Positions 12,961 through 28,338 of a stretch of 64,000 nucleotides of DNA are shown here, one piece after another (within the stretch, counting starts at the first letter, position 1; each line of letters starts with the position of its first letter). The DNA is from Desulfovibrio sp. Its GTDB lineage: Bacteria; Bacillota; Dethiobacteria; DTU022. A program made the translations under genes and the position numbers. Under the pieces are notes generated by a model. The model made no database searches. It saw only the letters and a program-made list of their open reading frames with translations, and was not told the DNA's origin. The stretch spans positions 21,020-85,019 of the forward strand of contig JAGUZX010000043.1 in the NCBI GenBank assembly GCA_020060545.1, in the 5' to 3' direction.

Positions 12961-12986
12961 GATAAGTGTAAATGGAGGGAGCAAAA

Positions 12987-13604: not shown

Positions 13605-13741
13605 AACAGAAAAGGAAAAAGGCAGTTGTTTTTTTCGTGTAATCCGAAACTTGACCCGCTCAATCTTTCCCATGGAAAGGGAAGGATTGGGCGGGGATCG
13701 CAGCGAGGCGGCATCATTTTGTTCAAAAGAGTTGGTGTCTG

Positions 13742-14407
13742 ATGCAAATGCAAAAATTCGTTCCGGCGATCATCAGTTTAGGGATAATGCTGGCTCTGGC
13801 CGGCCTGGTCCTGCTCATCCAACCTTACTATACGCTTGCCCAGGAAGACCATCCGTGCCGGATCACGGTTACCCCGCCGGAGGGCCGTTTTGCGATTGGG
13901 AATATGAATCCGGGTGACACGGCAAGTAAAAGCTTCACCGTGACCAAGGTCGGAGAGGCTCCTGCCTATCTTTACCTGAGGCAGGAATGGCTGCAGGGAA
14001 ACCCCCTCCCGGGTATGCCGGGAGATCTTTACAGCCAGCTCGTCATGGTAATCAGTTACCAGGGACGCCAGATTTACCGGGGCAAGATGAGCGCCCTGCC
14101 GAACCCGGTTAACGTTACCTTAATGACGCTGGGCCGCCCGATCCTGGTCGGCGAGTCGATCCGGCTCGACTGCAGCGTCCACCTTCCGGGGCCGGAGACC
14201 GGCAACGAGTTTCAGGGTTCGAGCGTGGTCACAAGGCTTGTTTTTTATACCGCCTGTTTCGAAGATGAGGAAGTTCCACCGGAGCCTCCGGAGATTGATC
14301 CTCCGGAGCTCCCGCCGACAAACGGCGTATTGCCGATGCTCCTGCTTGCCGCCGGGGTTTCAGTGATTTTCGCGGGGATTGTGCTCAGGAAAAAGGCGGA
14401 GGCGTAA
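13742..14407 (+). CDS. Secreted beta-rich protein with C-terminal LPPTNG-type cell-wall sorting signal (putative fibre anchor)
   Basis: N-terminal signal/TM. Pro-rich stalk (EEVPPEPPEIDPPE) followed by LPPTNG, a hydrophobic stretch and RKKAEA. This is the tripartite architecture of sortase substrates. Confidence 0.65.
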   Translation: MQMQKFVPAIISLGIMLALAGLVLLIQPYYTLAQEDHPCRITVTPPEGRFAIGNMNPGDTASKSFTVTKVGEAPAYLYLRQEWLQGNPLPGMPGDLYSQLVMVISYQGRQIYRGKMSALPNPVNVTLMTLGRPILVGESIRLDCSVHLPGPETGNEFQGSSVVTRLVFYTACFEDEEVPPEPPEIDPPELPPTNGVLPMLLLAAGVSVIFAGIVLRKKAEA

Positions 14408-14468
14408 GCGGCCGCCCGAGACCCTTCCGGTTACAGGCTGCCTGGCCGCCGCCAAAGGAGAGATCTTG

Positions 14469-14714
14469 ATGAACTGGAATTACCGGGTTTTGAAAGTGTA
14501 TGATCGCGAGCATGACAGCTATTATTACACGATTATCGAAGTTTTTTACGATCAAGCCGGCCGGATCGAGGGTTGGGTCAAAAACACTCAGCCCACGCGA
14601 TGGGAAGACTATGAGGGTTTAAGGCAAACGATCCTGGAACATCTGCCTGTTGCGTTTCAACAACCGGTGTTAATCGAGGTTGAAAATGAAAAATTGGTAG
14701 AATGCGCGGATTAA
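14469..14714 (+). CDS. Small hypothetical protein
   Basis: ATG 8 nt after AAGGAGAG. 81 aa with no recognisable domain. Confidence 0.45.
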   Translation: MNWNYRVLKVYDREHDSYYYTIIEVFYDQAGRIEGWVKNTQPTRWEDYEGLRQTILEHLPVAFQQPVLIEVENEKLVECAD

Positions 14715-14911
14715 GTTAGTAATCGATCCTATGCGGATGTATCATCCCAAAAAAAACTTGTGACTGGTAATATTTGTTGCAGGAATTTAAGGTTTATTGG
14801 CCAAAATAAGTATATGGATGTTTGGATTGGATGAGCTGTTAATTGAGACCTTAAAGGAGATGATGGCCGGCAAGATCCTGACTGCGAATTCAAGCAAGTA
14901 AAAATCCTGAC

Positions 14912-15000
14912 CGACAAGGCAAACCCGTCGAGAGGCGGGGACGCAAAGCCAAGGGTCTAAAGCCCGATTGACGGGCCATGATCGCCAGGCTACCGAAACA
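14912..15000 (+). ncRNA. c-di-GMP-I (GEMM) riboswitch, copy 2
   Basis: GGCAAACCCGUCGAGAGGCGGGGACGCAAAGCCAAGGGUCUAAAGCC…GGCUACCGAAACAGG. Same core as copies 1 and 3. The downstream GGTCCCTC…GAGGGAC hairpin (15020-15042) can sequester the RBS. Confidence 0.8.
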
Positions 15001-15048
15001 GGTTTTATTATTTCGGCTGTCGGTCCCTCACAAAGGAGGGACTTTATT

Positions 15049-16140
15049 TTGAGCAAAATAAGGTTTATTAATAGCATCGTGATCAGCGTTGTGATCGCCC
15101 TGATCCTTTCACTGCCGGGGATTTCAAAAATTACTGCCAGGGAAGATCTGACAATTTCGACTGTGGGCGCCGCGTCAAACGAAGCGGGAGCAGAAGAAGG
15201 CCCGGTGTTGCGGGAAGCAACGGCCGGCCTGCCTGGCGGCCCCGATCAGATTGGCCAGGCGGAAGCGGAAATAAACGGTGGTGCCGGAAACGCACCGGAA
15301 CAAAGTTCAACGCCGGGTTCCAGCCCGGAGCAGGGCGCTGTGCCAAAGCAGGAACTGGCTGCCGGGGAACAGTTGACGGAGAAGTCAACAGGCGCGCCGC
15401 CGCAGGAAGCGGTGAAAAATGAACCGGTCCAGGAGACGGTAAAAAGCGAGCCGGCCCCGCCCCCAACCAAGAGTGAAACGCCGCCGCCTGCCGCGCCGGT
15501 CAGCTTCAGTTGGGGCGCCGCGCAAACCTATCGTTACCGCACGGAGATAGTGTTAACCAACAGCGGAGCGGAAGTTTCACAGGGCGTACTGGTCAGGCTG
15601 CCCCTGCTGGAAAACAGCTCGCCGTATCAAAACACCACCCTCACTTCCATTAACTATGAACCTCTTGAGACCACGGGAAGGACAAGCTCTTTTCATCTCG
15701 GAGACATGCAGCCGGGTGAAACGAAAACGCTAATCGTGGATTATACCATTACGGTGCGCCCCGTTTGGCTCAATTCAACCAATGCGACCGTGGAAAAAGC
15801 AAGGCAGGCTTACCGGGAGTACGCCGGGAGCGGCAACTGCTTTGTTCTGGCGGCCGGTTTTGTAAACCGCAGCCGGGAATTGGGTCTTACCGCGCGGGTG
15901 GTCAACGGGATTGCCAACCCGCAAAGAGGGATATTCGCGCCGGGCTATATCCAAAACCGTCACAGCTGGGCCGAGTTTTATGTCGAAGGGCCGGGTTGGG
16001 TTCCGGTTGACCTTACTTTTCAATATTTCGGGCAGCTGCCCCAGGCTTCCCATATCGTCGAGAACTACGCCGACCAATCGCTGAAGCTCAACTATTTCGG
16101 GGGCAGAGTAAGCGCAGTTTGGCACACCAGAATCCTGTAA
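15049..16140 (+). CDS. Secreted transglutaminase-like cysteine protease superfamily protein with Pro/Glu-rich spacer
   Basis: TTG start 8 nt after GGAGGG, downstream of the riboswitch. Signal/TM MSKIRFINSIVISVVIALILSL. C-terminal transglutaminase-like core (Cys in GNCFVLAAGF, His in HSWAEFY, Asp in VPVDLT). Confidence 0.7.
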   Translation: MSKIRFINSIVISVVIALILSLPGISKITAREDLTISTVGAASNEAGAEEGPVLREATAGLPGGPDQIGQAEAEINGGAGNAPEQSSTPGSSPEQGAVPKQELAAGEQLTEKSTGAPPQEAVKNEPVQETVKSEPAPPPTKSETPPPAAPVSFSWGAAQTYRYRTEIVLTNSGAEVSQGVLVRLPLLENSSPYQNTTLTSINYEPLETTGRTSSFHLGDMQPGETKTLIVDYTITVRPVWLNSTNATVEKARQAYREYAGSGNCFVLAAGFVNRSRELGLTARVVNGIANPQRGIFAPGYIQNRHSWAEFYVEGPGWVPVDLTFQYFGQLPQASHIVENYADQSLKLNYFGGRVSAVWHTRIL

Positions 16141-16292
16141 AAGGATCCGGGGTGGGAAAATACGCCGTGAAAAAAAGAGAACAGTACCCGTCCGCTTTTA
16201 AGCGCAAATGGTTTGATCGGGTTTCCGAAGCAGCCATAAATTAAAGGTATAAATTAGCTTCCCCTGGAGGAGAATGATTCAGGGGGATTTTT

Positions 16293-17924
16293 TTGGAACG
16301 TTTTTTCCGCCAGAAACGGATCCTGTGGCTGCTGATCGGCCTGAGCGGCATCGTGTTTTTTCTGGCCGGCAAATTATTTTACCTGCAGCTGGTGCAGGGG
16401 CCTTCACTGACCCGGAGCGCCGTGCAGCAGCGCTTCCAAAGCATCATCCTGCTGGAAGGCCGCGGCGATATTCAGGATCGCCACGGGCGCTCTCTGCTGG
16501 ACGGGCGGCGCTCGATCGGGTTGCTCGCTTTCCCGGCCCAGTACCGCGGCAGTGAAGAAGAGATTATCCACCGCCTCTCTTCAGTAAACGGTATTGAAAA
16601 AATATCTTCCCCCCCGTATGGCCCCCTCCCTTTTTGGGTTACGCCCACCCTGAAACAGGATGTGCACACGCCACTTCCTACATTGCCGGGATTGATCCTC
16701 GCGTCCAGGGTGCAGCGCTACGGGCCTGACGCCCTCGCCAGGCATGCCGTGGGCTACCTCAAGGAAAGCGACGGCAGGGGAGTAAGCGGGATCGAGCTGT
16801 CTTTCGATCGCGAGCTGTCGGCGGGCCAAAAAACGGTCCTGGCGGCGCTGGTGGACGGGCGGAGCAGGCTGATCCCGGGCCTGGGTTACCGGATGCGCAA
16901 AGAAGAACCCGAAGCAAAAAACGTGGTCCTGGCCATCGATGGAGATCTGCAGCGCGAGGTGGAGCGGATCATGAACCGGCGGATCCGGCAGGGAGCGGTC
17001 GTGGTGATGGATCCCTGGAACGGGGATATCCTGGCCATGGCGAGCAGGCCTGATTTCAACCCGGGTGACCTGGGCGGGTCCTTGCTGCAGGAGTACGAAT
17101 CTTTTCTCAACCGGGCGCTCTGGGAATTCCAGCCCGGCTCGGTGTTCAAGGTGGTGGCCGCCGCCGCCGCGCTGAAAGAAGGCAAAGCCGGGCTATTTCA
17201 GACCTACCGCTGCCCGGGCGGTATTACTGTGGGCGGCCTTTTCTTCGCCTGCTCCAACCTGCACCAGAAGCAGGAGATCACCATGGTCGAGGCTTTCGCC
17301 CACTCCTGCAACAGCTATTTTATCAACCTGGCGCTTGAACTGGGCCCGGAGACGGTGGCCGCGTACGCGCGGCGTTTCGGTTTCGGTGAGGTTACGGGCC
17401 TGCCCGTGGGGGAGAAGCCCGGTTCCCTGCCCGCCGCGGCGGATCTGTCCAACCCGCGCGCCCAGGCCAACACCGCCATCGGCCAGGGCGCGGTACTGGC
17501 GACGCCGCTCCAGGTAGCGGCGATGTTCTCTGTAATAGCCAACGGCGGACACAAAATTCAGCCCCGCCTGGTACTGGCGCTGACGGACCGCTACGGGCGC
17601 GAATTCAGGCGCTTTTTGCCGCGGCGCGGTCAGGTGCTCCTCAGCCCGGTGACGGTAAGTCAGCTTAAATACCTGCTCATGGCGGTAATGGAGGAGGGGA
17701 CCGGGCGGCGGGGTAATACAACCGCCGCGCCGGCGGGGGCCAAGACCGGCACCGCCGAAAGCGGCCGCCGCCGGGACGGGCGGGAGGTGCTCAATCACTG
17801 GATCGCCGGCTTTTATCCGATTGAGCAGGCCGGGGCGGTAATCGCGGTATTTGCCGATGACCTCCTGGAGGGGACGGTGAGCGACGTATTCGGAGAGATC
17901 ACGAGATACCTGGAACGAAGGTGA
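16293..17924 (+). CDS. Class B penicillin-binding protein (FtsI/SpoVD-type transpeptidase)
   Basis: N-terminal TM. SVFK (SxxK), HSCNSYF (SxN) and AKTGTAE (KTG) motifs. 543 aa. Confidence 0.88.
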   Translation: MERFFRQKRILWLLIGLSGIVFFLAGKLFYLQLVQGPSLTRSAVQQRFQSIILLEGRGDIQDRHGRSLLDGRRSIGLLAFPAQYRGSEEEIIHRLSSVNGIEKISSPPYGPLPFWVTPTLKQDVHTPLPTLPGLILASRVQRYGPDALARHAVGYLKESDGRGVSGIELSFDRELSAGQKTVLAALVDGRSRLIPGLGYRMRKEEPEAKNVVLAIDGDLQREVERIMNRRIRQGAVVVMDPWNGDILAMASRPDFNPGDLGGSLLQEYESFLNRALWEFQPGSVFKVVAAAAALKEGKAGLFQTYRCPGGITVGGLFFACSNLHQKQEITMVEAFAHSCNSYFINLALELGPETVAAYARRFGFGEVTGLPVGEKPGSLPAAADLSNPRAQANTAIGQGAVLATPLQVAAMFSVIANGGHKIQPRLVLALTDRYGREFRRFLPRRGQVLLSPVTVSQLKYLLMAVMEEGTGRRGNTTAAPAGAKTGTAESGRRRDGREVLNHWIAGFYPIEQAGAVIAVFADDLLEGTVSDVFGEITRYLERR

Positions 17925-17948
17925 GGGTGGGAGAATTCTAATAACCTT

Positions 17949-17974
17949 GAATTAAGTATGGTGTCCCCCGAATT
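17949..17974. repeat. 26-bp repeat GAATTAAGTA(T/C)GGTGTCCCCCGAATT (copy A)
   Basis: 25/26 identical to 35620-35645. The reverse strand encodes ...IRGTPYLI..., the same peptide as the 5' end of the thiolase-like fragment gene. Confidence 0.6.
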
Positions 17975-18007
17975 TTAAGTCGGCAAACGAGCAACCGGCT
18001 ACTTTAC

Positions 18008-18250
18008 CTATTCCCGGGTTGATTCGCTCTTGTTAACCCAGAGAGCAAAAACCATGGCCAGGACGACTACCTCCCGCACCGGCTTGAAGATGTAATCCCA
18101 GATATGGGCGGCGGTGCTGATGCGCGGGTCGGGGATCAGGCCGTACTTTTCGGGACTGTCTTCCAGGACATACATCATCCCCAGCCCGTTCAACTCTTCA
18201 ATCCCGTATACGGTCGCCGCCGACCGGCCCGCGCGTTGCAGCTCCTTCAA
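18008..18250 (-). pseudogene. C-terminal fragment of a HybA-like Fe-S protein paralog
   Basis: 80-aa ORF homologous to only the last ~80 aa (including the C-terminal TM anchor …FKPVR…ALWVNKSES…) of the intact gene at 27411..28292. The N-terminal 4Fe-4S domains are absent. Confidence 0.7.
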
Positions 18251-18259
18251 CGACTCCTA

Positions 18260-18370
18260 GGTCATCGCTAGCTCCCGGGATACATCCATGATCTTCCGTC
18301 CACCCTCTTTCACCAAGCGTACCGCTTCTAACCTGAACTCCGGAGGGTACGGTGGTTTCGACTTCGGCAT
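18260..18370 (-). pseudogene. N-terminal fragment of an IS3-family transposase OrfA
   Basis: The reverse strand encodes MPKSKPPYPPEFRLEAVRLVKEGGRKIMDVSRELAMT with its own RBS (GGAGAGG). This is the typical IS3 OrfA HTH start. It ends at a TAG directly abutting the hybA-like fragment. Confidence 0.6.
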
Positions 18371-18450
18371 TAGTGAACCTCTCCTTTCAGGGATTAACCC
18401 AAGTATAAGAGTGTCCACTAAACCGGGTCAAGTCGTACCGCCCCGGTTTA

Positions 18451-19473
18451 TCAGCAAATCCTCGGCAGCGGCGTGCCGGCCAACATGCGCAGCTGCCTGG
18501 TGCCGCCCAGGCTGGTTCGCAGGTAAACGTTGCCTTTTCCCGGCTCGGCCACCCCGATAACGGCGCTCTCTTCCCCCTGGGGGTGTTCTCTTAACAGGCG
18601 TAAAACCGCATCGGCCGCTTCTTGCTTGACCACCAGCAGCGCCTTCCCTTCCGAAGCCAGGTAGTACGGGTCCACCCCCAACAGGTCGGCTACCGCTTTA
18701 ACTTTCGGCTTGATCGGGATGCTGCTTTCTTCCAAAACCAGATCTACTTTTCCGCTTGAGGCGAGCTCAATCAAAGTGGTGGCGATGCCGCCCCTGGTCG
18801 GGTCGCGCATTACCTTGATCTCCGGAAAAAGGGGTTGCAGTTTAGTAAATACGAAATTTAAGGGGGCACAGTCGCTGGTGGGGGAGTCCTGGGGGGCCAG
18901 CCCCAACCTCGCCGACAGGATCGCCGCCCCGTGGTCACCGATAGTCCCGCTGACAATCACCACGTCGGAAGGTTCGATATTCCCGGGGTGAAGATCTGCG
19001 CCGGTATGGACCAAGCCGATCCCGGTAGTGCTGATAAACAAGTTTTCGGGGCCGCCGTTGTCGGCCACCTTTGTATCCCCGGTAATGATCGGCAAACGGA
19101 GGCCGCGGGCGGTATCGGCCATGGATTGGACGACGGCCTCCAGCATCCGCCGGGGCATCCCCTCGGGCAGAATAAAGGCCGCAGAGAGCCATAGCGGTTG
19201 TGCGCCGCTGACAATAAGGTCGTTGACGGTGCCGCAAACGGCGAGCTTCCCGATATCGCCTCCCGGGAAAAAGAGGGGGGAGACGACGAACGAGTCGGTG
19301 GTCATGGCTAAACGCTGGTTATCTAAGGTCAGCACGGCTGCGTCACCGGCCTGATCAAGCCACTGATTGCTGAAAGCGGGGAAAAAAATTCTTTGCAGCA
19401 GCTCGTGGGTTAGTAAGCCGCCGTCCCCGTGGCTGGAGACGATTACTTCTTGCCTGGTGTTGCTGGTGCTCAT
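18451..19473 (-). CDS. hypE: Hydrogenase maturation factor HypE
   Basis: AIR-synthase-like fold. The C-terminus ends …PRIC (the carbamoyl/cyano-carrying Cys). ATG at MSTSN follows GGAGGAG. Confidence 0.9.
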   Translation of the reverse strand: MSTSNTRQEVIVSSHGDGGLLTHELLQRIFFPAFSNQWLDQAGDAAVLTLDNQRLAMTTDSFVVSPLFFPGGDIGKLAVCGTVNDLIVSGAQPLWLSAAFILPEGMPRRMLEAVVQSMADTARGLRLPIITGDTKVADNGGPENLFISTTGIGLVHTGADLHPGNIEPSDVVIVSGTIGDHGAAILSARLGLAPQDSPTSDCAPLNFVFTKLQPLFPEIKVMRDPTRGGIATTLIELASSGKVDLVLEESSIPIKPKVKAVADLLGVDPYYLASEGKALLVVKQEAADAVLRLLREHPQGEESAVIGVAEPGKGNVYLRTSLGGTRQLRMLAGTPLPRIC

Positions 19474-19487
19474 GGCGCTCCTCCGTG

Positions 19488-20585
19488 TTATCGCAGCATG
19501 TATTGGTAATAAGCGCTGCACGCTCCTTCCGACGAAACCATGCAGGGGCCTGCCGGGTCAGAAGGGGTGCAGCCTTTGTTGAACAGGGGGCACTCGAAGG
19601 GGGAAATTTTACCGGTTATAATATCCCCGCAGCGGCAGCGCGGGCGCGCTTCCACCGGCGGAGTGTGCAGTTCGTACCTTGTCCGCACATCGAAGGCGGC
19701 GTATCGCTCTGCCAGCCGGTAACCGCTGCTGGGGATAGGCCCCAGCCCTCTCCAGTGGGTTACCGGCTCTTCTTCAAAGCATAGATTAATTAAACGCTGG
19801 GCCGAAAGGTTGCCTTTGGCACGGACCACGTGAGAATAGGCGTTTTCCACGGCGGCCCTTTCTTCGTTAATCATCCTCAATAGCACATAGAGCCCCATTA
19901 GCAGCTCCAGGGGTTCAAACCCGGCGACAACTGCTGGAATACCGAACCGGCCGACAAAGTGAAACGCTTCGCTACCCAGCACCGTTGAAACATGGCCGGG
20001 CAGAATTAGTCCGTCCAGGTCACACCCTCCGTCTTGTAATAAGGCGAGCAGGGCCGGGGGGACCATTTTCAAGGCGGGGTATAGGTAAAAGTTGCTCAAC
20101 CCTGCTTCCGCCGCCTGTAGTAGGGTCGCGGCGATAGTGGGGGCCGTGGTTTCGAAGCCGATAGACAACAAGATTACGTTGTAACTTGGGTTTTGAGCTG
20201 CCAGGTCGACCGCTTCCAGCGGTGAATAGCATATGTGAACCTTGGCCCCCCTGGCTTTTTCCGTTTCCAAGGTGGTGAAAGTGCCGGGCACCCTCAACAT
20301 GTCGCCAAACGTAACGATGAGGGTGTCTTTCAGCTTAGCCAGGGCGAACATCCGGTCAAGGTCTTGTTGGTGGGTTACGCAAACCGGGCAGCCGGGGCCG
20401 CTTCTTAAATCCAAGTAGCTTCCGACCAGGCTGGTAATCCCTGAGCGGGCAAAAGAGACGGTGTGGGTGCCGCACACTTCCATGATCTTAACTTTGCGGC
20501 GTTTTTGTTCTTGTGCCCTTTGCCCGAGGGAATCTACTTTTCTTAACAGCGCTTTTAACAACCCGTCGTCTATTCTGTCCATCAA
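19488..20585 (-). CDS. hypD: Hydrogenase maturation factor HypD
   Basis: CGTH and GPGCPVC motifs. 365 aa. Confidence 0.9.
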   Translation of the reverse strand: MMDRIDDGLLKALLRKVDSLGQRAQEQKRRKVKIMEVCGTHTVSFARSGITSLVGSYLDLRSGPGCPVCVTHQQDLDRMFALAKLKDTLIVTFGDMLRVPGTFTTLETEKARGAKVHICYSPLEAVDLAAQNPSYNVILLSIGFETTAPTIAATLLQAAEAGLSNFYLYPALKMVPPALLALLQDGGCDLDGLILPGHVSTVLGSEAFHFVGRFGIPAVVAGFEPLELLMGLYVLLRMINEERAAVENAYSHVVRAKGNLSAQRLINLCFEEEPVTHWRGLGPIPSSGYRLAERYAAFDVRTRYELHTPPVEARPRCRCGDIITGKISPFECPLFNKGCTPSDPAGPCMVSSEGACSAYYQYMLR

Positions 20586-20806
20586 GCCGGCTCCTCCAGG
20601 ATGCTTTTCAGCAGCCGAATGCGCGCTTCTGCTTCCGAAGGGTCGATTATCTCCATGGCGAACCCTGCGTGCACCAAAACATAATCTCCCTCTTTTGCCT
20701 CGGGAACCAACCGGAGGTTAATGGCGCGCTCTACGCCCATGGTTTCGGCATAGGCTTTAAACCCGCCTTCGATTTTATTGATCTTCATCAAAACTCCCAG
20801 GCACAT
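20582..20806 (-). CDS. hypC: Hydrogenase maturation factor HypC
   Basis: N-terminal MCL…, 74 aa. Confidence 0.85.
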   Translation of the reverse strand: MCLGVLMKINKIEGGFKAYAETMGVERAINLRLVPEAKEGDYVLVHAGFAMEIIDPSEAEARIRLLKSILEEPA

Positions 20807-23111
20807 CTTCTTTCCACCTCTTGTACGCGATAAGCGCTTGACCGAGAGATACCCCCCCGTCGTTGGTAGGCACCTGCCGGTGCAGCAGCACCTTCATTTT
20901 TTGCTCCCCCAAAATGCGCTTTACTTTCAGGGTTAAGTAGGGATTAAGCCACGTTCCGCCGGACAAGGCGACGGTATTTAACCCCGTCCGTTCAGAGGCC
21001 GCTTTAATTGCTTCGGTGATCGCCTTGATCATTGTATCATGGAACCGGCGGGCCACCAAGGCTAGCTCCTTCCCTTGGGCGGCCTCTTCGAGCATGGCCG
21101 GGAACACGGGCGAAAAATCGATTTCTTTTCCGTGGATGGTGAAAGGGTATGGGTCAAGGGGCTTGCTTACGTCGTTTAAATCGATCATTTCTCCCAGCTC
21201 AATGGCGGCCTGCCCCTCGTAGGTATTTTGATAACATACACCTACGGCTGCCGCCGCAGCATCGAACAGGCGTCCGCAGCTGGAAGTTGGCACAACATTA
21301 ATACCCGCCGCAAGTTGCCTGCAGACGATATCGACCTCATGGCGGAAGTGCGTTTCTAAAAGGCTTCTGCCGGCGGACAGCCCGGCCTCGCCGGAACATT
21401 GATAGAGGTAGCTGAGGGCCATGCGCCAAGGCCACCTTACCGCAGCTTCCCCCCCCGGCATAGGAGTGTATTTTTGGTGGAAGTGCCGGGTAAAGGAAAG
21501 GGCATCGCCGCTGATTATTTCGAACCCCCAGACGGCGCCGTCAAGCCCGTAACCTGTCCCGTCGAGGACGGCGCCGATAGCCTTGCCGCGGTAGCCGTTG
21601 TCTCCCAGGCAGGAGGCAAAATGGGCGTGATGGTGGGAAACACCGTAGCGTTTGACGGCTGGAAGGCTCTTCGCTATGGATGAAACATGGTAGTCAGGGT
21701 GCAGGTCGTAACCGATAACCTCTACCTTAAGATCAAACAGGTGTTTAAAGGAAGTCAGGCTTTCGAAGTAAAACCGCTCGGCTTCAAGGGTGCCCATTTC
21801 TCCCAGGTGCTGACTTAAATAAGCTTTGTTCCCTTTAATGAGGCAGAAGGTGCTTTTCATTTCGGCTCCCGCGCCCAGTACGGTGAGCTGGGCCTGGAAC
21901 GGCAGATCAATCGGCTGGGGGGCAAAACCGCGCGAGCGGCGGTAGAGCTGGGTTTCCCCCTCCAACACCCTGGCCACCGAATCGTCGCACCTTTGGACTA
22001 TTGGCCGGTTGTGCACCAGGTAATAGTCGGCGACATCATTTAACCGATCTAACGCTTCCCCGTTGTCTTTAATAATCGGCAGGTCCGTGGGGTTGGCGCT
22101 GGTCAGGATCATCACATCAAAAGGCCCTTGCAACAGCATGTGGTGCAGCGGTGTATACGGGAGCATTACACCCAGGGTTGAAAGGTGCGGGTTGATGTTT
22201 TTCGGCAAAGGAGCCCCGGGTTTAACCTCCAGCAGCACGATGGGGGAGGAGGGGGAAGCGAGCAAAGCGGCCTCTTGATCGTTTACCCGGCAGTACCGGG
22301 CCGCTGTTTCCAAGTCTCGGCACATTACGGCGAAAGGTTTGTACGGCCTGTTTTTTTTGGCCCTGATCATTTCAACTACCTTCTCTGACGCAATACAAGC
22401 GAGGTGGTAGCCGCCCAGGCCCTTTACAGCAAAAATGTGGCCGCGGCGCATTTTGTCGTAGAAGAAGCTCAACCAGCTTTTTTCGCCGGCTTTAACTGCA
22501 CCGCTGGAGTCAGTAATTTGAACACGAGGCCCGCACGAAGGGCAGGCGATAGGTTGGGCATGAAAGCGGCGGTCGGCCGGGTCGTTATATTCCGCCAGGC
22601 ACGCTGGGCACGGCGGGAATGCTTTCATCGATGTACTGGAGCGGTCGTAAGGGATATCTTCGATAATGGTGAAACGGGGGCCGCAATTAGTGCAGTTGGT
22701 AAACGGGTACATATAATAACGGTGGCCGGGGGAGCGGACCTCGGCCAAGCAGCCGTTACAGGTAGCGATGTCCGGAGGCACCAGGACCCCTTTTTCCTGG
22801 CGGCTTCTGCTTAGGTCAATGTTAAACTGGCTGTAATTACGCACCGGTTGAGGGGTTTGAAGGACCGAATCTATTTTGGCTAAGGGGGGCGGGTTTTGCA
22901 CCAGGCGGCGGCAAAACAGGTTGATTTGGTCCGGCTCCCCTTCTATTTCCAGCACTACGCCGTCACCCTCGTTCCTTACCCAACCGTAAAGGGCGCACTC
23001 CTGGGCCAGCTTGTACACATAAGGCCTGAACCCGACCCCCTGAACGACCCCTTTAATCTTTAAGGCTAGGCAGATCTTTTTCTCTGTAGTAGCTTTTCCA
23101 GCCATTTGCAC
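20775..23111 (-). CDS. hypF: Carbamoyltransferase HypF
   Basis: Acylphosphatase domain (VQGVGFRP), two Zn-finger pairs (CxxC), YrdC-like and Kae1-like domains. 778 aa. Confidence 0.9.
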   Translation of the reverse strand: MQMAGKATTEKKICLALKIKGVVQGVGFRPYVYKLAQECALYGWVRNEGDGVVLEIEGEPDQINLFCRRLVQNPPPLAKIDSVLQTPQPVRNYSQFNIDLSRSRQEKGVLVPPDIATCNGCLAEVRSPGHRYYMYPFTNCTNCGPRFTIIEDIPYDRSSTSMKAFPPCPACLAEYNDPADRRFHAQPIACPSCGPRVQITDSSGAVKAGEKSWLSFFYDKMRRGHIFAVKGLGGYHLACIASEKVVEMIRAKKNRPYKPFAVMCRDLETAARYCRVNDQEAALLASPSSPIVLLEVKPGAPLPKNINPHLSTLGVMLPYTPLHHMLLQGPFDVMILTSANPTDLPIIKDNGEALDRLNDVADYYLVHNRPIVQRCDDSVARVLEGETQLYRRSRGFAPQPIDLPFQAQLTVLGAGAEMKSTFCLIKGNKAYLSQHLGEMGTLEAERFYFESLTSFKHLFDLKVEVIGYDLHPDYHVSSIAKSLPAVKRYGVSHHHAHFASCLGDNGYRGKAIGAVLDGTGYGLDGAVWGFEIISGDALSFTRHFHQKYTPMPGGEAAVRWPWRMALSYLYQCSGEAGLSAGRSLLETHFRHEVDIVCRQLAAGINVVPTSSCGRLFDAAAAAVGVCYQNTYEGQAAIELGEMIDLNDVSKPLDPYPFTIHGKEIDFSPVFPAMLEEAAQGKELALVARRFHDTMIKAITEAIKAASERTGLNTVALSGGTWLNPYLTLKVKRILGEQKMKVLLHRQVPTNDGGVSLGQALIAYKRWKEDVPGSFDEDQ

Positions 23112-23722
23112 CAGTCGCCGAGCCCCTCCCCGGTTTTAGTGGAGACAGTAAATAAGGCGAGGTTTTCGTTAATTTTTCTGAGGTCTTCGTTCAATTGATT
23201 CAAATTAAAGTCACAGTACGGCAGAAGGTCCGTTTTGGTGACTACCGCTGCGTCGGCGACCTTAAACGCCAGAGGGTATTTTCTCGGCTTATCGTTGCCC
23301 TCGGTTACGCTGAGCAGAACTACCCGAATATCTTCGCCCAGGTCAAATTCGGCGGGGCATACCAGGTTGCCGATGTTTTCAATAAACAGTAGTTCAGCGG
23401 AGAGTAAATTTTCCTGCGCCAGCAGATGGCCGATATATCCCGCCTCCAGGTGACAAGATCCCTCTGTGTTAATTTGCACAATTTGGTTACACCATGAAGA
23501 CAATCTGCGGGCGTCTTCGTCGGTGTAAAGGTCGCCTTCGATTACCGCAGTACGGTACCCTGATAGTTTTTTTAGGGTGTGCTCCAAAAGGGCTGTTTTC
23601 CCCGAACCGGGCGAGCCGATTAGGTTGACCATTAGGACTCCGCTTGCTCTTAACAGGCTGCGGTTTTCACCGGCGTTGTTTTGGTTAGCTTCAAGCAGCT
23701 CTTTGGCCAAATATACTCTCAT
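23066..23722 (-). CDS. hypB: Hydrogenase nickel-incorporation GTPase HypB
   Basis: P-loop GSPGSGKT and CH motif. Confidence 0.9.
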   Translation of the reverse strand: MRVYLAKELLEANQNNAGENRSLLRASGVLMVNLIGSPGSGKTALLEHTLKKLSGYRTAVIEGDLYTDEDARRLSSWCNQIVQINTEGSCHLEAGYIGHLLAQENLLSAELLFIENIGNLVCPAEFDLGEDIRVVLLSVTEGNDKPRKYPLAFKVADAAVVTKTDLLPYCDFNLNQLNEDLRKINENLALFTVSTKTGEGLGDWCKWLEKLLQRKRSA

Positions 23723-23726
23723 ATGG

Positions 23727-24068
23727 CTATTCTCCCTCGTAGTAGTCGATATAAACCTTTCTCCCCTCTTCTATACTGGAGGCAGGCTTGCCGCAAGCGG
23801 GGCAGCAGAAAAAAGGAGGGGCGAGGCGAAATTCCCGGGAGCAGGCCCGGCATTTTTCTCGTGCTTCCCGGACAGACACTTCAAAATTCGCCTCCGAAAG
23901 TACGGTCCCCTTAACCAGGTTTCCCAGGGCGAACATAAGGGCGCGGTTGCTAGCCGAAGACAGTTCGCCGGCAATCAAACGTACTCGTGTAATCTTTTTA
24001 ATGTTTTTTTGCCGTGCGTCTTCCAATATAATTTGGACGATTGAATAAGCTAAAGACAGTTCATGCAT
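23727..24068 (-). CDS. hypA: Hydrogenase nickel-incorporation protein HypA
   Basis: MHE start and two CxxC pairs. 113 aa. Confidence 0.9.
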   Translation of the reverse strand: MHELSLAYSIVQIILEDARQKNIKKITRVRLIAGELSSASNRALMFALGNLVKGTVLSEANFEVSVREAREKCRACSREFRLAPPFFCCPACGKPASSIEEGRKVYIDYYEGE

Positions 24069-24562
24069 GTTTTTAAATATAAACCAATTTCCTCTTTAAG
24101 CCTACTTTCGATAAATCCCAGCTGTTCCGAGAGCTCTTCGCTCAAGCCGATCCCCGCGTCAATCCTTTTGATCTGGATTCCGATAATGACCACGTTTTCC
24201 GGCAAAGTGCCCAGCAAATCGGCATGCTGCAGAAGCTGTAACGGGCCTGCTTGGTGACCGGAAAGGTTCTTTCTTAAGTGAAATCTCTCCAGGTCCTCCA
24301 GGGAAAATTTAAAGATACTGCCGGGCGCAGACGCCAGATCTACGGAGTCCAGGATCATCAAATCGGAGTAATCCTGGAACAAGTAGAGCAGCCCCAGCCC
24401 GATGGTCCCTCCGTTAATGATATCGGCATGATTACTTTGATAGCTAGACGCCAGCCTTTCCGCCATCACGGCCCCGATCCCGTCATCGCCGCACAGCCAG
24501 TTTCCGATACCGAGTACGAGCAGTTTTCTGTTAGAGCATGGTTTAAGCTGTCGCAACAGCAT
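24050..24562 (-). CDS. Hydrogenase maturation endopeptidase (HybD/HyaD family)
   Basis: LVLGIGNWLCGDDGIG signature. Confidence 0.85.
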   Translation of the reverse strand: MLLRQLKPCSNRKLLVLGIGNWLCGDDGIGAVMAERLASSYQSNHADIINGGTIGLGLLYLFQDYSDLMILDSVDLASAPGSIFKFSLEDLERFHLRKNLSGHQAGPLQLLQHADLLGTLPENVVIIGIQIKRIDAGIGLSEELSEQLGFIESRLKEEIGLYLKTCMNCL

Positions 24563-24637
24563 TCCTCCTGTTAAAGGGGATCCAAAAGTAGATGGTAGGC
24601 TGCCCCGGTTTCTTCATCCGGGGCAGCCCGATCCCTT

Positions 24638-26230
24638 TTAAAAAACAGGGTAAAGCGGTACAAATTTCTTGCCTTTGGGGTGGATGATGTGAATGGCGCA
24701 AGCCAGGCACGGATCGAAAGAGCGGATTATCCGCACGATATTGAGCGGGTTGTCCAGGTCGGGCACCGGAGCGCCGATCAAGGCTTCTTCGATGGGACCG
24801 CGCTGCCCCTGCTTGTCTTGCGGCGAGGCGTTCCACGTCGTGGGCACGACCATCTGGTACTGTTTGACTTTCTTTCCCGAGATGCGGATCCAATGGCCCA
24901 GGGCTCCCCGAGGCGCTTCGTTAAGCCCAGCTCCGGCCCCTTCGAAGGGAGGCTCCCAGTGATCGGTGTCGTGGATTAACGCGTTACCCGCGGAGCCGTA
25001 CACGCCTGTTTCCCCTATTAACTGGGTAAGCTCATTTGCCCACTTCGTTACCGCAGCGGCCATTGCCAGGGCGTCTACCGCCCTGGCAGCGTGGCGCATG
25101 ACCACTCCGGGGCGCTTGATATTATATTCTCTCATCAGCCTCATGAAGGTTTCATTTTTCATAATCAGCACTCTGGCCAGGGGGCCTACCTCCATCGGCT
25201 TACCCTGGTAGCGGGGCGCCTTAACGAAACTATAACCCTCTTTTTTGTCCAGGTCGACGACCGTTTCTCTTTCGGAGGGGTGGCCGGGCCGCGGTTCGTT
25301 TTTATACCATGAAAAGTCAACCTGCTCCCTGATTTCCGCCGGGTTAAACGGCTGGATGTGGTCAAAGTCATTATCGAAGATGACCCCGCTGGGGAAAAGG
25401 TAATTGGTGCCGCTGCCGTCCAGCGGGTACCCGCCGTAGCTCAGGTAATGGCCGGCGGTTGCGCCGACGGACGCTTTTTCCAGGGGAAGCAGCGGTCCGG
25501 TGGCCAGCAGCAGGGCGTCGGGAATATAAACGTTTCTTACAAAATCTATTACTTCGTTGATAATGCGTATAAACTGCTGAACCTGCCCCAAGGTAGGGTA
25601 ACAGGTCACCCCCCCTACAACCATACTGGAGTGGTGGGGCTGCTTGCCGGCAAATATGGCCGAAGCTTTTCTACCTTTGGCTTGGATTTCCAGAGCACGG
25701 AGGTAGTGATATACTAGTTCTGTTACCAGTTCAGGATCTTTAACGCAAAAATCATCGGGCTTGTAGCTGGGCAAGACAGGGTACAGGTCGCCGGCGTCGG
25801 CTAGAGCTTTAATTTTATCCTTGACCGCAACCAGTTCAGAGACGCTGCCTTGATAATTGAGCACCGCCGTAGGGTCAATGTAGTCCAGGGCGGCGAGGTG
25901 ATAAAAGTGCAGCACATGGTCATGCAGCCACATGGCGCCCATCATCAAGTTCCGCAGCACCCGGCCCATTTCGGGGACGGTAGCCCCGTGGGCTTCTTCA
26001 ATGGCCAGGCAAGAGGCCCAGCCGTGCACGCCGGCGCACACGCCGCAGACCCGTTCGGTGACGTAAGGCACATCCCTGGGGTCCTTGCCCAATACGATCT
26101 GCTCTAAGCCGCGAAACATGGTTCCGATGCACCTGGCGTCGAACGCTACCCCGTTTTCCACGGTGACTTCGACTTTTAAATGCCCCTCGATCCTGGTTAC
26201 GGGGTCGACGACAATTTTATTCGCCATCAT
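24638..26230 (-). CDS. [NiFe] hydrogenase large subunit
   Basis: N-terminal RIEGH…RVCGVCAGVHG (L1 CxxC) and C-terminal DPCLACAIH with the protease-cleaved extension. 530 aa. Confidence 0.92.
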   Translation of the reverse strand: MMANKIVVDPVTRIEGHLKVEVTVENGVAFDARCIGTMFRGLEQIVLGKDPRDVPYVTERVCGVCAGVHGWASCLAIEEAHGATVPEMGRVLRNLMMGAMWLHDHVLHFYHLAALDYIDPTAVLNYQGSVSELVAVKDKIKALADAGDLYPVLPSYKPDDFCVKDPELVTELVYHYLRALEIQAKGRKASAIFAGKQPHHSSMVVGGVTCYPTLGQVQQFIRIINEVIDFVRNVYIPDALLLATGPLLPLEKASVGATAGHYLSYGGYPLDGSGTNYLFPSGVIFDNDFDHIQPFNPAEIREQVDFSWYKNEPRPGHPSERETVVDLDKKEGYSFVKAPRYQGKPMEVGPLARVLIMKNETFMRLMREYNIKRPGVVMRHAARAVDALAMAAAVTKWANELTQLIGETGVYGSAGNALIHDTDHWEPPFEGAGAGLNEAPRGALGHWIRISGKKVKQYQMVVPTTWNASPQDKQGQRGPIEEALIGAPVPDLDNPLNIVRIIRSFDPCLACAIHIIHPKGKKFVPLYPVF

Positions 26231-27326
26231 GCGACACTCCTTCCTTTTTCTTCTTTAGCAAATCTGCTACTTTGTTTATTACAAAAGGTGCTGCGGCAAT
26301 TCCCGCCCCCAGGGCCACAGATCCGGCGTGAATTCCTCTCGCTCTTTGGGCAACAGGCATCGCCTCATCTTCTCGGCCGGGGGGAAGCGGCGACACGTAG
26401 AGAGGAGCCAGATCTTTGTAGAACTGGGGCTGTGTGCACCCGGCACACGGTGAGCCCGCCCTGATGCAGGTGCTGACTCCGTCGTTCCACCAGATGCGGT
26501 TGCAATCGGCGTAGGTTACCGGGCCTTTGCAGCCCATCTTGAGCAGGCACCAGTCCACTGTAGCGGGGTTGTTCCAGTCCTCCAAGAACTGGCCCCGCTC
26601 GAAGTAAGATGCCCGGGGGCAGGTATCGTGGACGAAGTGGCTGCCGAAATAGGCAAGAGGCCGGTTATCGCTGTCTAGCGGGGGCAGCTCGTTAAAGCTC
26701 AAGTAATACAGCAGGGTCCCGGCGAGCCAGTCCGGCTTTAACGGGCAGCCTGGGATGTTGACAACGGGCTTTCCGGACACGATTTCAGACACACCTTTCG
26801 CCCCGGTAAACCCGGCCCGGGGGATCCCTCCGTAGGCGGCGCAAGACCCTGCGGCGATTACCGCATCGGCGTTCTTCGAGGCTTTGAGGACTATTTCGTC
26901 AAACGGTAACCCCTCCACGACGCAGTAGCGGGGATCCCTGGTCGGGATCGACCCTTCCACGACCAGCAGGTAACCGCCTTCTTTCACCGTATCCTCCAAG
27001 GCTTTAATGCTAAGGTGCCCCGCTGCGTTCATTACCGTGCTGTTAAACCGCATCGACACCAAGTCTAACAGCACTTCGCCAGGACCAGGGTTCAGTGATG
27101 AAAGCAAGGAGCAGCTGCAACCGGTGCAGCCTTGCCCCTGGATCCAGATTACCGGCTTTTTGTTCAAGGCGGTCGTAGCTGCTTCCGCAAATAAGCCGCC
27201 GAAGTAGTAATCCAAGCCCAGCGCCACCGCTGTTGCGGCGCAGTACTTGATAAAGGTGCGCCTGGGGATACCCTTCAACTCCATTTTTAGCAGGCCTGTT
27301 TCCATGATTGAGTCCCGATCTTTCAT
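26217..27326 (-). CDS. [NiFe] hydrogenase small subunit with Tat signal
   Basis: Twin-arginine leader (GIPRRTFIKYCAATAVALG). Fe-S cluster Cys ligands (CTGCSCS, GCPL…). 369 aa. Confidence 0.9.
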   Translation of the reverse strand: MKDRDSIMETGLLKMELKGIPRRTFIKYCAATAVALGLDYYFGGLFAEAATTALNKKPVIWIQGQGCTGCSCSLLSSLNPGPGEVLLDLVSMRFNSTVMNAAGHLSIKALEDTVKEGGYLLVVEGSIPTRDPRYCVVEGLPFDEIVLKASKNADAVIAAGSCAAYGGIPRAGFTGAKGVSEIVSGKPVVNIPGCPLKPDWLAGTLLYYLSFNELPPLDSDNRPLAYFGSHFVHDTCPRASYFERGQFLEDWNNPATVDWCLLKMGCKGPVTYADCNRIWWNDGVSTCIRAGSPCAGCTQPQFYKDLAPLYVSPLPPGREDEAMPVAQRARGIHAGSVALGAGIAAAPFVINKVADLLKKKKEGVSHDGE

Positions 27327-27410
27327 CCTTTCTTTACCTCCTCCATTAATTCAAGGTGCTGTTGGCTCTGCTTCAGCCGCATTAATTATTAACAAGGCAA
27401 ATTAAGCATG

Positions 27411-28292
27411 TTATTCTGCATGTTTTGACTCCGATTTATTCACCCACAAGGCGAACGCCAGAACCATGACCAGAAAAGCGCGGACCGGTTTAAACACATA
27501 GCTCCATACCTGAGCTGAAGCAGGAACTCGCGGGTTTTCCGGCAGCCCGTACTTCGATTGGCTGTCTTCTTTCCCCTCACTAAGGACATAAACCATTTGG
27601 AGCCCTTCCAGTTCTGATAGCCCGTACAGCTCAACATTTTTATTTCCGTTCTTTTTTAGCTCCTCCACCCTGGCGCTGGCCAAGTTGAGAATATCGCTTC
27701 GGTCGCCGAACGTCAGCGCCCCGGTGGGGCAGCTGTGGGCGCACGCAGGGGCTAACCCTTTGGCGAGGCGGTCGGAGCATAGGGTGCACTTTCTGGCTAT
27801 GTTGCGCGAATGGTCAAAGCCGACCACATTGAAGGTGCAGTTGGCAATGCAGTAATTGCAGCCGATACATTTCTTCTCGTCAATGACCACAGCGCCGAAT
27901 ACATTATGAGTAATTGCGTTGGCCGGGCAGACAATAACACAGGCGGCGTTGCGGCAGTGCATGCAGCTTTGCCTGGTGTAGATCCATTTTTCGCTTTCAC
28001 TGCCTTCCGCACCGTTGATATATTGTTTAAAAACAATGTTTATCCAGTTAATAGCGGAAAAACGGGGGCTGCCGTTGTCTGTCTTGGAAAACTTGTATTC
28101 TTCTACCGGCAGCCGGTTCCACTGTTTGCAGGCTTGCACGCAAACCCGGCAGCCGGTGCATTTGGAAATATCAATCAGGATGGATTTTTCCTGGCCGGCT
28201 GATACAGCATTTACCACCCCGGCTCCTGAAATAGCTGCCGCAGCGGCTGCTGCACCGGTAAGCTTGATAAAAGTACGCCGTGGAAGCTTCAT
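27411..28292 (-). CDS. HybA/FdnH-like periplasmic 4x[4Fe-4S] electron-transfer subunit with Tat signal and C-terminal TM anchor
   Basis: MKLPRRTFIKL Tat motif. Four CxxCxxCxxxCP ferredoxin motifs. C-terminal helix FKPVRAFLVMVLAFALW. Confidence 0.85.
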   Translation of the reverse strand: MKLPRRTFIKLTGAAAAAAAISGAGVVNAVSAGQEKSILIDISKCTGCRVCVQACKQWNRLPVEEYKFSKTDNGSPRFSAINWINIVFKQYINGAEGSESEKWIYTRQSCMHCRNAACVIVCPANAITHNVFGAVVIDEKKCIGCNYCIANCTFNVVGFDHSRNIARKCTLCSDRLAKGLAPACAHSCPTGALTFGDRSDILNLASARVEELKKNGNKNVELYGLSELEGLQMVYVLSEGKEDSQSKYGLPENPRVPASAQVWSYVFKPVRAFLVMVLAFALWVNKSESKHAE

Positions 28293-28338
28293 AGTCTATA
28301 ATCACCCCCAAAATATTTACTGGGCATCCGGGTAATCA

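What the first reader, a model, noticed from the sequence alone, without database searches (positions are those of the whole stretch)
17940..18450. Cluster of gene remnants: IS3 OrfA N-terminal fragment fused end-to-end with a HybA-like C-terminal fragment, plus a 26-bp relic
The minus strand encodes an RBS-equipped 37-aa start of an IS3-family transposase (MPKSKPPYPPEFRLEAVRLVKEGG…). It terminates at a TAG and is followed in the same frame by a ~78-aa copy of the C-terminus of the hydrogenase-operon HybA-like gene at 27411..28292. This is a scar of an IS-mediated deletion or duplication that removed the rest of a paralogous hydrogenase module next to the hyp genes.
Basis: seen in the sequence. 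Interest (0 to 1): 0.55.

Follow-up and report, generated by a model that had tools for sequence, protein, structure and literature searches.

The report
Scar of a lost formate dehydrogenase
This short stretch is dead DNA: the first 40 codons of a jumping gene (IS3) joined to the last 80 codons of a formate dehydrogenase iron-sulfur subunit gene. It marks where a formate dehydrogenase operon gave way to a horizontally exchanged [NiFe] hydrogenase gene block, so it is an ordinary pseudogene scar with an informative history.

Summary
The minus strand carries an IS3-family left end (inverted repeat, promoter-like site, ribosome-binding site, orfA codons 1-40 with an in-frame TAG at codon 38). It is joined at 18251-18247 to the last 80 codons of an FdnH/HybA-type iron-sulfur protein gene. 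A 26-bp repeat has a second copy at 35619-35644. An independent assembly (99.5% identical) has the same arrangement, so it is not a chimera.

The interpretation needs correcting. The tail is not a copy of the local HybA-like gene (51% aa). It is the positional orthologue of formate dehydrogenase beta subunits (59-67% aa). In five related metagenomic contigs these end convergent with the same PBP gene, and in three of them they follow rnfC-rnfD-fdhA (in L012 fdhA carries an in-frame TGA at the selenocysteine position). What was lost is a formate dehydrogenase module, not a second hydrogenase.

The hydrogenase/hyp block (28902-18446) is 93-98% identical to another lineage whose flanking genes are 69-77% identical. 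That similarity stops 5 nt after hypE, 10 nt before the IS end. Most likely the block replaced fdhA and 5' fdhB on a shared rnfCD platform. The IS is truncated internally, so it is a casualty or filler, not the demonstrated agent. Interest is modest.

The parts
16293..17924 (+). PBP (transpeptidase) gene. It is the conserved right-hand anchor, convergent with the remnant.
   Evidence: Pfam Transpeptidase, E 4e-50. Relatives L009-L014 carry the 58-60% identical gene convergent with an intact fdhB.
17949..17974 (.). The second copy is at 35619-35644. Origin unknown.
   Evidence: 25/26 identity; 0 matches in 100 shuffles. Similarity to the IS3 terminal repeats is not significant. Absent from all fetched loci except L006, and from viral contigs.
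18008..18250 (-). fdhB' : the last 80 codons (including the C-terminal membrane helix and the native stop) of a formate dehydrogenase beta / FdnH-type iron-sulfur subunit gene. All Fe-S cluster motifs are missing.
   Evidence: BLASTP, HMMER and NCBIfam results. It is the positional orthologue of FdhB in L009, L010, L011, L012 and L014.
18247..18251 (-). Illegitimate junction between IS3 orfA (codon 40/41) and fdhB (about codon 175 of about 258).
   Evidence: IS homology is clear through GAGTCG (18256-18251). fdhB homology is clear from AAGGAGCTG (18247 downward).
18251..18370 (-). orfA' : codons 1-40 of an IS3-family OrfA, with TAG (18259-18257) in place of Ser38.
   Evidence: Pfam HTH_Tnp_1. 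35/41 residues match P0089/P0102. 92.9% nt identity to L027.
18371..18435 (-). IS3 left end: terminal inverted repeat (CGACTTGACCCGGTTTAGTGGACAC...), a sigma-70-like promoter (TTGACC 18431-18426, TATACT 18407-18402) and a ribosome-binding site (18386-18378).
   Evidence: Alignments with four IS copies whose flanks differ upstream of CGGACTTGACC. IRL/IRR pair found in L027. Promoter scan scores 10/12.
18436..18445 (-). 10-nt filler CGGGGCGGTA between the end of the shared hyp block and the IS end. Origin unknown.
   Evidence: L029, L031 and L032 diverge from the window exactly after ...TGATAAAC (18446). IS copies begin at CGGACTTG.
18446..28902 (-). Hydrogenase block: 3' half of rnfD, HybA-like gene, [NiFe] small and large subunits, protease, hypA/B/F/C/D/E. 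It has been exchanged recently with another lineage.
   Evidence: Identity to L029 is 92.8% (28902-24102) and 98.3% (23885-18446), against 73.0% for rnfC and 5' rnfD, and 69-77% for the flanking Iso_dh and sigma genes.
28903..30796 (-). rnfC and the 5' half of rnfD: the resident 'platform' shared by hydrogenase-type and formate-dehydrogenase-type operons.
   Evidence: NCBIfam rnfC and rnfD. The four lineages W, L029, L012 and L009 are roughly equidistant at 70-76% nt.

Best explanation
The region is the right-hand scar of a module replacement.

The ancestor of this genome carried, convergent with the PBP gene, an operon rnfC-rnfD-fdhA-fdhB encoding a periplasmic formate dehydrogenase, as relatives still do. 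DNA carrying the 3' half of rnfD, a HybA-like gene, a [NiFe] hydrogenase and the hyp maturation genes then recombined into this operon. That DNA was followed by a short piece of an IS3 element. The left crossover was homologous, inside rnfD (near 28902). The right join was illegitimate, between codon 40/41 of the IS orfA and about codon 175 of fdhB. This fits homology-facilitated illegitimate recombination.

The event removed fdhA and the Fe-S part of fdhB. It left the last 80 codons of fdhB, the IS left end with 40 orfA codons, and 10 nt of filler. Nothing here is expected to work. The stub has since acquired a stop codon, and the tail lacks every cluster-binding motif.

Shown: the identity and orthology of both fragments, the junction position, the mosaic identity of the hydrogenase block, and the reality of the arrangement.

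Inferred: that it was a single event, the direction of transfer, and that the IS piece arrived with the incoming DNA.
For: The tail is orthologous to FdhB next to the PBP gene in five relatives, three of which also have rnfC-rnfD-fdhA. The window-versus-L029 identity profile steps from 73% to 93% to 98% and ends abruptly at 18446, which is 5 nt past the hypE stop and 10 nt before the IS end. rnfC and 5' rnfD are equidistant among hydrogenase-type and Fdh-type lineages, so the platform is shared and the modules differ. The junction lies inside orfA, not at an IS end. The tail has no frameshift or stop in 80 codons, which fits a recent event, as does the 98% identity of the hyp genes. The same arrangement is present in the independent assembly L006.
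Against: The direction of transfer is unresolved. L029 also has a truncated gene (a larA-like fragment) right after hypE, and GC3 does not separate donor from recipient. The left flank of the window (Iso_dh, sigma) is syntenic with the hydrogenase-type relative L029. That also fits an ancestral hydrogenase operon at this site. No donor with an IS directly after hypE was found. No strain showing the pre-swap state of this species was found. The identity tiers (93% and 98%) imply more than one recombination event among lineages. The origin of the 10-nt filler is unexplained.
Confidence: 0.5

Rival explanations
1. Tandem operons followed by a deletion. The ancestor had the hydrogenase operon (rnfC...hypE) immediately upstream of a separate, complete rnfC'-rnfD'-fdhA-fdhB operon. 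An IS3 element inserted after hypE. A later illegitimate deletion, running from inside orfA to inside fdhB (about 7 kb or more), removed the rest of the IS and the Fdh operon. The high identity of the hydrogenase block to L029 would then come from an unrelated exchange, or from transfer out of this lineage.
For: The order Iso_dh-sigma-...-rnfC is shared with the hydrogenase-type relative L029 at background divergence. This suggests the hydrogenase operon's left flank is ancestral here. A single deletion explains the internal IS truncation equally well.
Against: No relative shows hydrogenase and Fdh operons in tandem. L012 and L009 have no hyp genes upstream of rnfC, and L031 has no Fdh operon within 4 kb of hypE. 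The model needs extra events to explain why the 98% identity to L029 runs exactly to the hypE stop plus 5 nt, and why there are 10 nt of filler before the IS end.
Confidence: 0.3
2. One reading: the tail is what remains of the HybA gene of a second, paralogous hydrogenase module, removed by an IS-mediated deletion or created by duplication of the local gene.
For: The tail is homologous to the local HybA-like gene (51% aa) and lies next to the hyp genes.
Against: The tail is closer to FdhB proteins (59-67% aa) than to any HybA of a hydrogenase operon (46-51%). It occupies the FdhB position next to the PBP gene in five relatives. About 62% DNA identity excludes a recent duplication. The junction is not at an IS end.
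Confidence: 0.05
3. The 80-codon ORF (TTG 18250) or the 37-codon ORF is a functional small gene. Examples would be a membrane-anchored peptide expressed from the IS promoter, or an OrfA-like DNA-binding peptide.
For: Both ORFs are called as genes in public annotations. A promoter-like site and a ribosome-binding site precede the stub. The tail retains an intact membrane helix and has no disabling mutation. There are no differences from L006 in this stretch.
Against: The ORF is found only in this lineage. All Fe-S motifs are absent. The TTG start has only AGGAG 3 nt upstream. The stub has a 6:3 nonsynonymous-to-synonymous change pattern and a stop codon relative to active copies. Identity with L006 reflects recency, not constraint.
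Confidence: 0.05
4. Assembly chimera joining unrelated contigs at a repeat.
For: IS fragments are common places for misassembly.
Against: An independent assembly from another run (L006) spans hypE-stub-tail-PBP with 12 SNPs and no gaps. Both sides of the junction have a sensible evolutionary context.
Confidence: 0.02

Closest known systems
IS3-family insertion sequences (closest full copies: L027 from JGI 3300002733 and L028 from Logan ERR14790931)
   Same: The left terminal repeat, promoter, ribosome-binding site and OrfA N-terminus (helix-turn-helix, Pfam HTH_Tnp_1) are 92-93% identical in DNA. The full copies have a 98-aa orfA, an rve-domain orfB and 40-nt imperfect inverted repeats.
   Different: Only about 185 nt of about 1290 remain. 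There is no orfB, frameshift site or right end, and there is a stop at codon 38. The piece cannot transpose.
Formate dehydrogenase beta subunit, FdnH/FdhB type (NCBIfam TIGR01582)
   Same: The tail aligns to profile positions 193-264 of 283, including the C-terminal membrane anchor. It sits in the same position and orientation relative to the PBP gene as intact fdhB genes in relatives.
   Different: It lacks the N-terminal 175 or so residues that carry all four [4Fe-4S] motifs, and there is no fdhA beside it.
HybA (hydrogenase-2 Fe-S subunit) and the local HybA-like gene at 27411-28292
   Same: It belongs to the same superfamily and has the same C-terminal helix motif (FKPVR...FALWVNKSES); 51% aa identity.
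   Different: HybA-type proteins of these operons carry their own TAT signal and precede the hydrogenase subunits. The tail is closer to the signal-less FdhB proteins.
Homology-facilitated illegitimate recombination (known from natural transformation in Acinetobacter and Streptococcus; recalled from my own knowledge, not checked here)
   Same: One end of the replaced segment lies in homologous DNA (rnfD). The other is a non-homologous join, with a few nucleotides of possible overlap and a patch of filler DNA.
   Different: The mechanism is inferred from end-point anatomy only. The parental sequences and the transfer route are unknown.
Truncated Rnf (subunits C and D only) encoded next to a formate dehydrogenase in the uncultured Firmicute unFirm_1 (PMC5080403)
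   Same: The same rnfC-rnfD-fdh gene order as in relatives L009, L012 and L014. That paper detected RnfC and the Fdh in a metaproteome.
   Different: Here the Fdh has been lost and a [NiFe] hydrogenase occupies its place. The biochemical role of RnfCD in such clusters is untested.

Membership tests
IS3 family insertion sequence | OrfA with an N-terminal helix-turn-helix (Pfam HTH_Tnp_1) | tested here: met
   The stub scores 22.5 bits against a cut-off of 24.1 because only 37-40 residues remain. Full-length relatives with 35/41 matching residues carry PF01527.
IS3 family insertion sequence | OrfB with a DDE (rve) transposase domain, expressed by -1 frameshifting | tested here: not met
   tblastn with the L027 OrfB finds nothing in the window. 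The element ends at codon 40/41 of orfA. It is a fragment, not a member capable of function.
IS3 family insertion sequence | Terminal inverted repeats at both ends, with a target-site duplication | tested here: inconclusive
   The left repeat is present and aligns with four copies. The right end is absent, so a duplication cannot be assessed.
Formate dehydrogenase beta subunit (FdnH/FdhB, TIGR01582) | Four [4Fe-4S] cluster-binding cysteine motifs | tested here: not met
   Only the region after the last motif is present (alignment; profile positions 193-264).
Formate dehydrogenase beta subunit (FdnH/FdhB, TIGR01582) | C-terminal transmembrane anchor and sequence similarity to the family | tested here: met
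   TIGR01582 E 5.9e-6. 59-67% aa identity to FdhB of L009-L014. The best hit among 1.84 billion representatives is P0009, the FdhB of L009.
Formate dehydrogenase beta subunit (FdnH/FdhB, TIGR01582) | Encoded next to a molybdopterin formate dehydrogenase alpha subunit | tested here: not met
   There is no fdhA in the window. It is present in L009, L012 and L014; in L012 it has the in-frame TGA and scores 948 bits against TIGR01553. The window holds a relic of the gene, not the gene.
HybA of a [NiFe] hydrogenase operon | Closest relatives are HybA proteins that precede hydrogenase small and large subunit genes and have their own TAT signal | tested here: not met
   Identity to the HybA of the window, L001 and L002 is 45-48% over the tail, against 59-63% to FdhB proteins. 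The N-terminus is absent.

The most novel reading that the evidence does not exclude
The scar is direct evidence that RnfC/RnfD form a generic membrane platform onto which either a periplasmic formate dehydrogenase or a periplasmic [NiFe] hydrogenase can be plugged. On this reading, a biogas-type Bacillota lineage recently switched from the first to the second by acquiring a hydrogenase-plus-maturation block horizontally. That would have changed its route of interspecies electron transfer from formate to H2.
Probability: 0.4. Interest if true: 0.6.

Novelty: new member of a known kind. Interest (0 to 1): 0.38.

Why it matters
As a sequence feature it is an ordinary pseudogene and IS-fragment scar, and it should be annotated as such; public annotations currently call two small genes here.

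Its value is historical. It fixes the ancestral state of the locus (formate dehydrogenase) and the edge of a recently exchanged 10.5-kb hydrogenase/hyp block. This shows that Fdh and hydrogenase modules are interchangeable downstream of the same rnfC-rnfD genes. In syntrophic anaerobes the choice between formate and H2 as electron carrier matters physiologically, and the role of these two-subunit 'truncated Rnf' clusters is unknown.

Tried and rejected
(1) Word-indexed protein search with the tail found only the tail itself. The exhaustive HMMER search was needed to find relatives.

(2) The genome-collection scan with HypE gave only distant relatives (61-69%) without the PBP neighbour.

(3) Idea: the 26-bp relic is a degenerate end of the same IS3. 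Local alignment to IRL and IRR scores no better than shuffles (518/2000 and 769/2000 shuffles scored at least as well). It was also not found in plasmids, viral contigs or any fetched locus.

(4) Idea: the left junction lies in the TAT signal of the HybA-like gene, which resembles the FdhA signal of L012 (47/60 nt). Rejected, because L029 has the same HybA N-terminus and the change-point is in rnfD at about 28902.

(5) Breakpoint tests on RnfD using L001 and L002 gave mixed signals. They were superseded by the L029 comparison.

(6) GC and GC3 profiles do not mark the block as foreign, and do not tell donor from recipient.

(7) Rfam: only a chance-level hit.

The identical HypC was used instead.

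(9) Organism names could not be obtained.

Full report
WHAT IS IN THE SEQUENCE

The following features read 5' to 3' on the minus strand.
- hypE ends with TGA at 18453-18451.
- A 5-nt stretch, TAAAC (18450-18446), follows.
- Ten nucleotides, CGGGGCGGTA (18445-18436), come next.
- The left end of an IS3-family element starts at 18435 (CGACTTGACCCGGTTTAGTGGACAC...).
- Inside this terminal repeat is a sigma-70-like promoter, TTGACC-18 nt-TATACT (18431-18402, 10 of 12 positions).
- A ribosome-binding site, AAGGAGAGG (18386-18378), precedes ATG at 18370.
- The ORF reads MPKSKPPYPPEFRLEAVRLVKEGGRKIMDVSRELAMT and then TAG (18259-18257).
- The same frame continues as ESLKELQRAGRSAATVYGIEELNGLGMMYVLEDSPEKYGLIPDPRISTAAHIWDYIFKPVREVVVLAMVFALWVNKSESTRE, then TAG (18010-18008).
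- Eighty-three nucleotides further on, the convergent PBP gene ends at 17924.

THE IS PIECE

Pfam gives HTH_Tnp_1 at E 1.4e-4 for the stub. Homologues found in public proteins are 98-aa IS3 OrfA proteins. The closest, P0089 and P0102, match 35 of 41 residues.

P0089 lies on L027, where the complete element has these parts:
- orfA at 1080-1376;
- an rve-domain orfB at 1391-2263;
- 40-nt imperfect terminal repeats at 1015-1054 and 2264-2303.

The stub is 92.9% identical to L027 over 184 nt without gaps. Four IS copies with unrelated flanks all begin at CGGACTTGACC, which places the IS end in the window at 18435. The relatives read ...ELGMTSESLRNW.... The TAG therefore replaces Ser38, and IS homology continues through GAG TCG (18256-18251), possibly also TTG. 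No orfB or second copy exists in the window.

THE TAIL

BLASTP against the local HybA-like gene (27411-28292; TAT signal plus Fer4_11) gives 51% identity over 81 aa, E 5e-29. DNA identity is only about 60-65%.

An exhaustive HMMER search of 1.84 billion representatives found 49 hits. The best is P0009, at 64%. P0009 lies on L009, downstream of rnfC, rnfD and a molybdopterin oxidoreductase, and is convergent with a PBP gene.

BLASTN of L009 against the window matches these regions:
- rnfC-rnfD (30810-28391, 71%);
- the tail (18208-18017, 73%);
- the PBP gene (17858-17465, 67%).

A metagenome scan using the PBP protein as query gave four more loci with the Fe-S gene convergent with the PBP gene. 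L012 and L014 have the alpha subunit. L010 and L011 lack it.
- In L012 the alpha subunit scores 948 bits against NCBIfam TIGR01553 (formate dehydrogenase-N alpha). It has an in-frame TGA in the context HCARL*HSSTV, the selenocysteine position.
- L011 is syntenic with window 1963-17918.

Over the tail columns the remnant is 59-63% identical to these FdhB proteins, and 67.5% to L014 by tblastn. It is 45-48% identical to the HybA proteins of hydrogenase operons (the window's own, L001 and L002). The tail itself hits FDH-beta TIGR01582 at profile positions 193-264 of 283.

The tail is therefore the positional and sequence orthologue of the last 80 codons of fdhB. The FdhB proteins of these relatives are about 258 aa and have no signal peptide, so the break lies at about codon 175.

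THE JUNCTION

IS homology is clear down to 18251. fdhB homology is clear from AAG GAG CTG (18247 downward). The TTG codon between them is compatible with both, since OrfA reads ESL and the FdhB of L010 reads KSLKNLQAAG. The join is therefore inside orfA, not at an IS end. The frame is preserved, which has a one-in-three chance, but the TAG makes this irrelevant.

IS IT REAL?

The exact 80-aa and 37-aa products are encoded on an independent Logan contig (L006, SRR22388167). That contig is 99.46% identical to window 17001-19238, with 12 substitutions and no gaps. Misassembly is therefore very unlikely.

THE HYDROGENASE BLOCK IS THE MOVING PART

The cluster representative of the local HybA-like protein led to L029, a 47-kb Logan contig, and to L030. 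The identical HypC led to L031 and L032. These contigs carry rnfC-rnfD-HybA-SSU-LSU-hycI-hypABFCDE.

Segmenting the window-versus-L029 alignment gives four tiers:
- 73.0% for 30796-28903 (rnfC and the first 160 or so codons of rnfD);
- 92.8% for 28902-24102;
- 82.4% for 24101-23886;
- 98.3% for 23885-18446.

Similarity stops dead after ...TGATAAAC (18446) in L029, L031 and L032. In those contigs a larA-like gene fragment follows. Flanking genes shared by the two lineages are 77% (Iso_dh) and 69% (sigma factor) identical.

For rnfC and 5' rnfD, the window, L029 (hydrogenase type) and L012 and L009 (Fdh type) are all 70-76% identical to one another. In 3' rnfD only the window-L029 pair jumps, to 90%.

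So rnfCD behaves as a conserved platform. The block from mid-rnfD to 5 nt past hypE was exchanged recently between lineages. Its right edge abuts the IS stub.

MOST LIKELY HISTORY (confidence about 0.5)

The ancestor had rnfC-rnfD-fdhA-fdhB convergent with the PBP gene. Incoming DNA carried 3' rnfD through hypE plus an IS fragment. It recombined by homology in rnfD and illegitimately at orfA codon 40/41 :: fdhB codon about 175, deleting fdhA and 5' fdhB.

This single event explains four observations:
- the seamless left side;
- the scarred right side;
- the internal truncation of the IS;
- the coincidence of the block edge with the stub.

The absence of any frameshift in the 80-codon tail, and the 98% identity of the hyp genes, fit a recent event.

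MAIN RIVAL (confidence about 0.3)

In this model the hydrogenase operon and a complete second Fdh operon lay in tandem. An IS inserted after hypE, and a deletion from inside the IS to inside fdhB followed.

The Iso_dh-sigma-rnfC order shared with L029 gives this model some support. However, no relative shows the tandem state, and the model needs extra events.

The direction of transfer is not settled:
- GC3 is uninformative.
- L029 has its own truncated gene after hypE.
- The block has somewhat lower GC3 than either flank, so both lineages may be recipients.

THE 26-BP RELIC

GAATTAAGTATGGTGTCCCCCGAATT (17949-17974) recurs at 35619-35644 with one mismatch, and no matches appeared in shuffles.

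The second copy lies 7 nt after the stop of an acyl-CoA dehydrogenase gene. It directly abuts a thiolase-like gene fragment that matches NCBIfam NF004722 at positions 10-86 of 385.

Its similarity to the IS3 terminal repeats is not significant. It was not found elsewhere. In relatives the fdhB-PBP spacer holds a strong terminator hairpin, whereas the window has none (z = -0.16). The origin of the repeat remains unexplained.

COMPARISON WITH WHAT IS KNOWN, AND VERDICT

The stub is a fragment of an IS3-family element. The helix-turn-helix and left repeat are present, but orfB and the right end are absent. The tail is a fragment of an FdnH-type beta subunit gene. The anchor is present, but the cluster motifs and the neighbouring fdhA are absent. 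Neither is a functional member of its family.

The rnfC-rnfD-fdh arrangement has been noted before. In unFirm_1, RnfC and the Fdh were detected in a metaproteome (PMC5080403).

The feature is a new instance of a known kind: a recombination scar or pseudogene. Its interest lies in documenting an Fdh-to-hydrogenase module change on an rnfCD platform. I score interest at 0.38.

Noticed in passing
window 18446-30796 (minus strand); L001, L002, L009, L012, L014, L029: A two-gene 'truncated Rnf' (rnfC plus rnfD only) heads both [NiFe] hydrogenase operons (window, L001, L002, L029) and selenocysteine formate dehydrogenase operons (L009, L012, L014). rnfCD divergence follows lineage, not operon type. 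The role of RnfCD beside periplasmic Fdh or hydrogenase is uncharacterised. It was noted once for unFirm_1 (PMC5080403).
   Followed up: partly
window 18446-28902 compared with L029, L030, L031 and L032: The hydrogenase/hyp block is 93-98% identical to contigs from other samples whose flanking genes are only 69-77% identical. There are sharp change-points at about 28902 (inside rnfD) and about 23885, and a dead stop at 18446. This is recent horizontal exchange of a 10.5-kb hydrogenase-plus-maturation cassette.
   Followed up: yes
window 35329-35658 (minus strand) and 35619-35644: A thiolase-domain gene fragment (NCBIfam NF004722 positions 10-86 of 385, E 3e-28) lies between an acyl-CoA dehydrogenase gene and a sigma-factor gene. 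Its truncated 5' end abuts the second copy of the 26-bp repeat. This is a second gene relic marked by the same repeat.
   Followed up: partly
L010 6261-7410; L011 9179-11958: Two relatives have rnfC-rnfD followed directly by fdhB, with no alpha subunit, convergent with the PBP gene. Their rnfD is the most divergent of the set (59-62% aa).
   Followed up: no
L029 19933-20571; L031 12434-15180: In the other lineage, hypE is followed by a larA-like fragment (matching positions 205-279 of 415). About 2.5 kb further on there is a degenerate, unrelated IS3-family element next to a Na/Ala symporter fragment. The right edge of the block is therefore scarred there too.
   Followed up: partly
window 17925-18007: The spacer between the fdhB tail and the PBP gene has no terminator-like hairpin (fold z = -0.16). 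The same spacer in L009 and L012 (folded), and by eye in L010 and L014, holds a strong GC-rich hairpin.
   Followed up: partly
window 18451-19238 compared with L006: Ten of the 12 differences between the window and the independent assembly L006 fall in hypE. At 8 of these 10 sites L006 carries the L029 allele. There are none in the stub or tail and one in the PBP gene. This suggests continuing allele exchange in the hyp genes, or private changes in this strain.
   Followed up: partly
window 18436-18445: Ten nucleotides (CGGGGCGGTA) lie between the end of the shared hyp block and the IS end and match neither. They may be filler DNA or the IS's former flank.
   Followed up: partly
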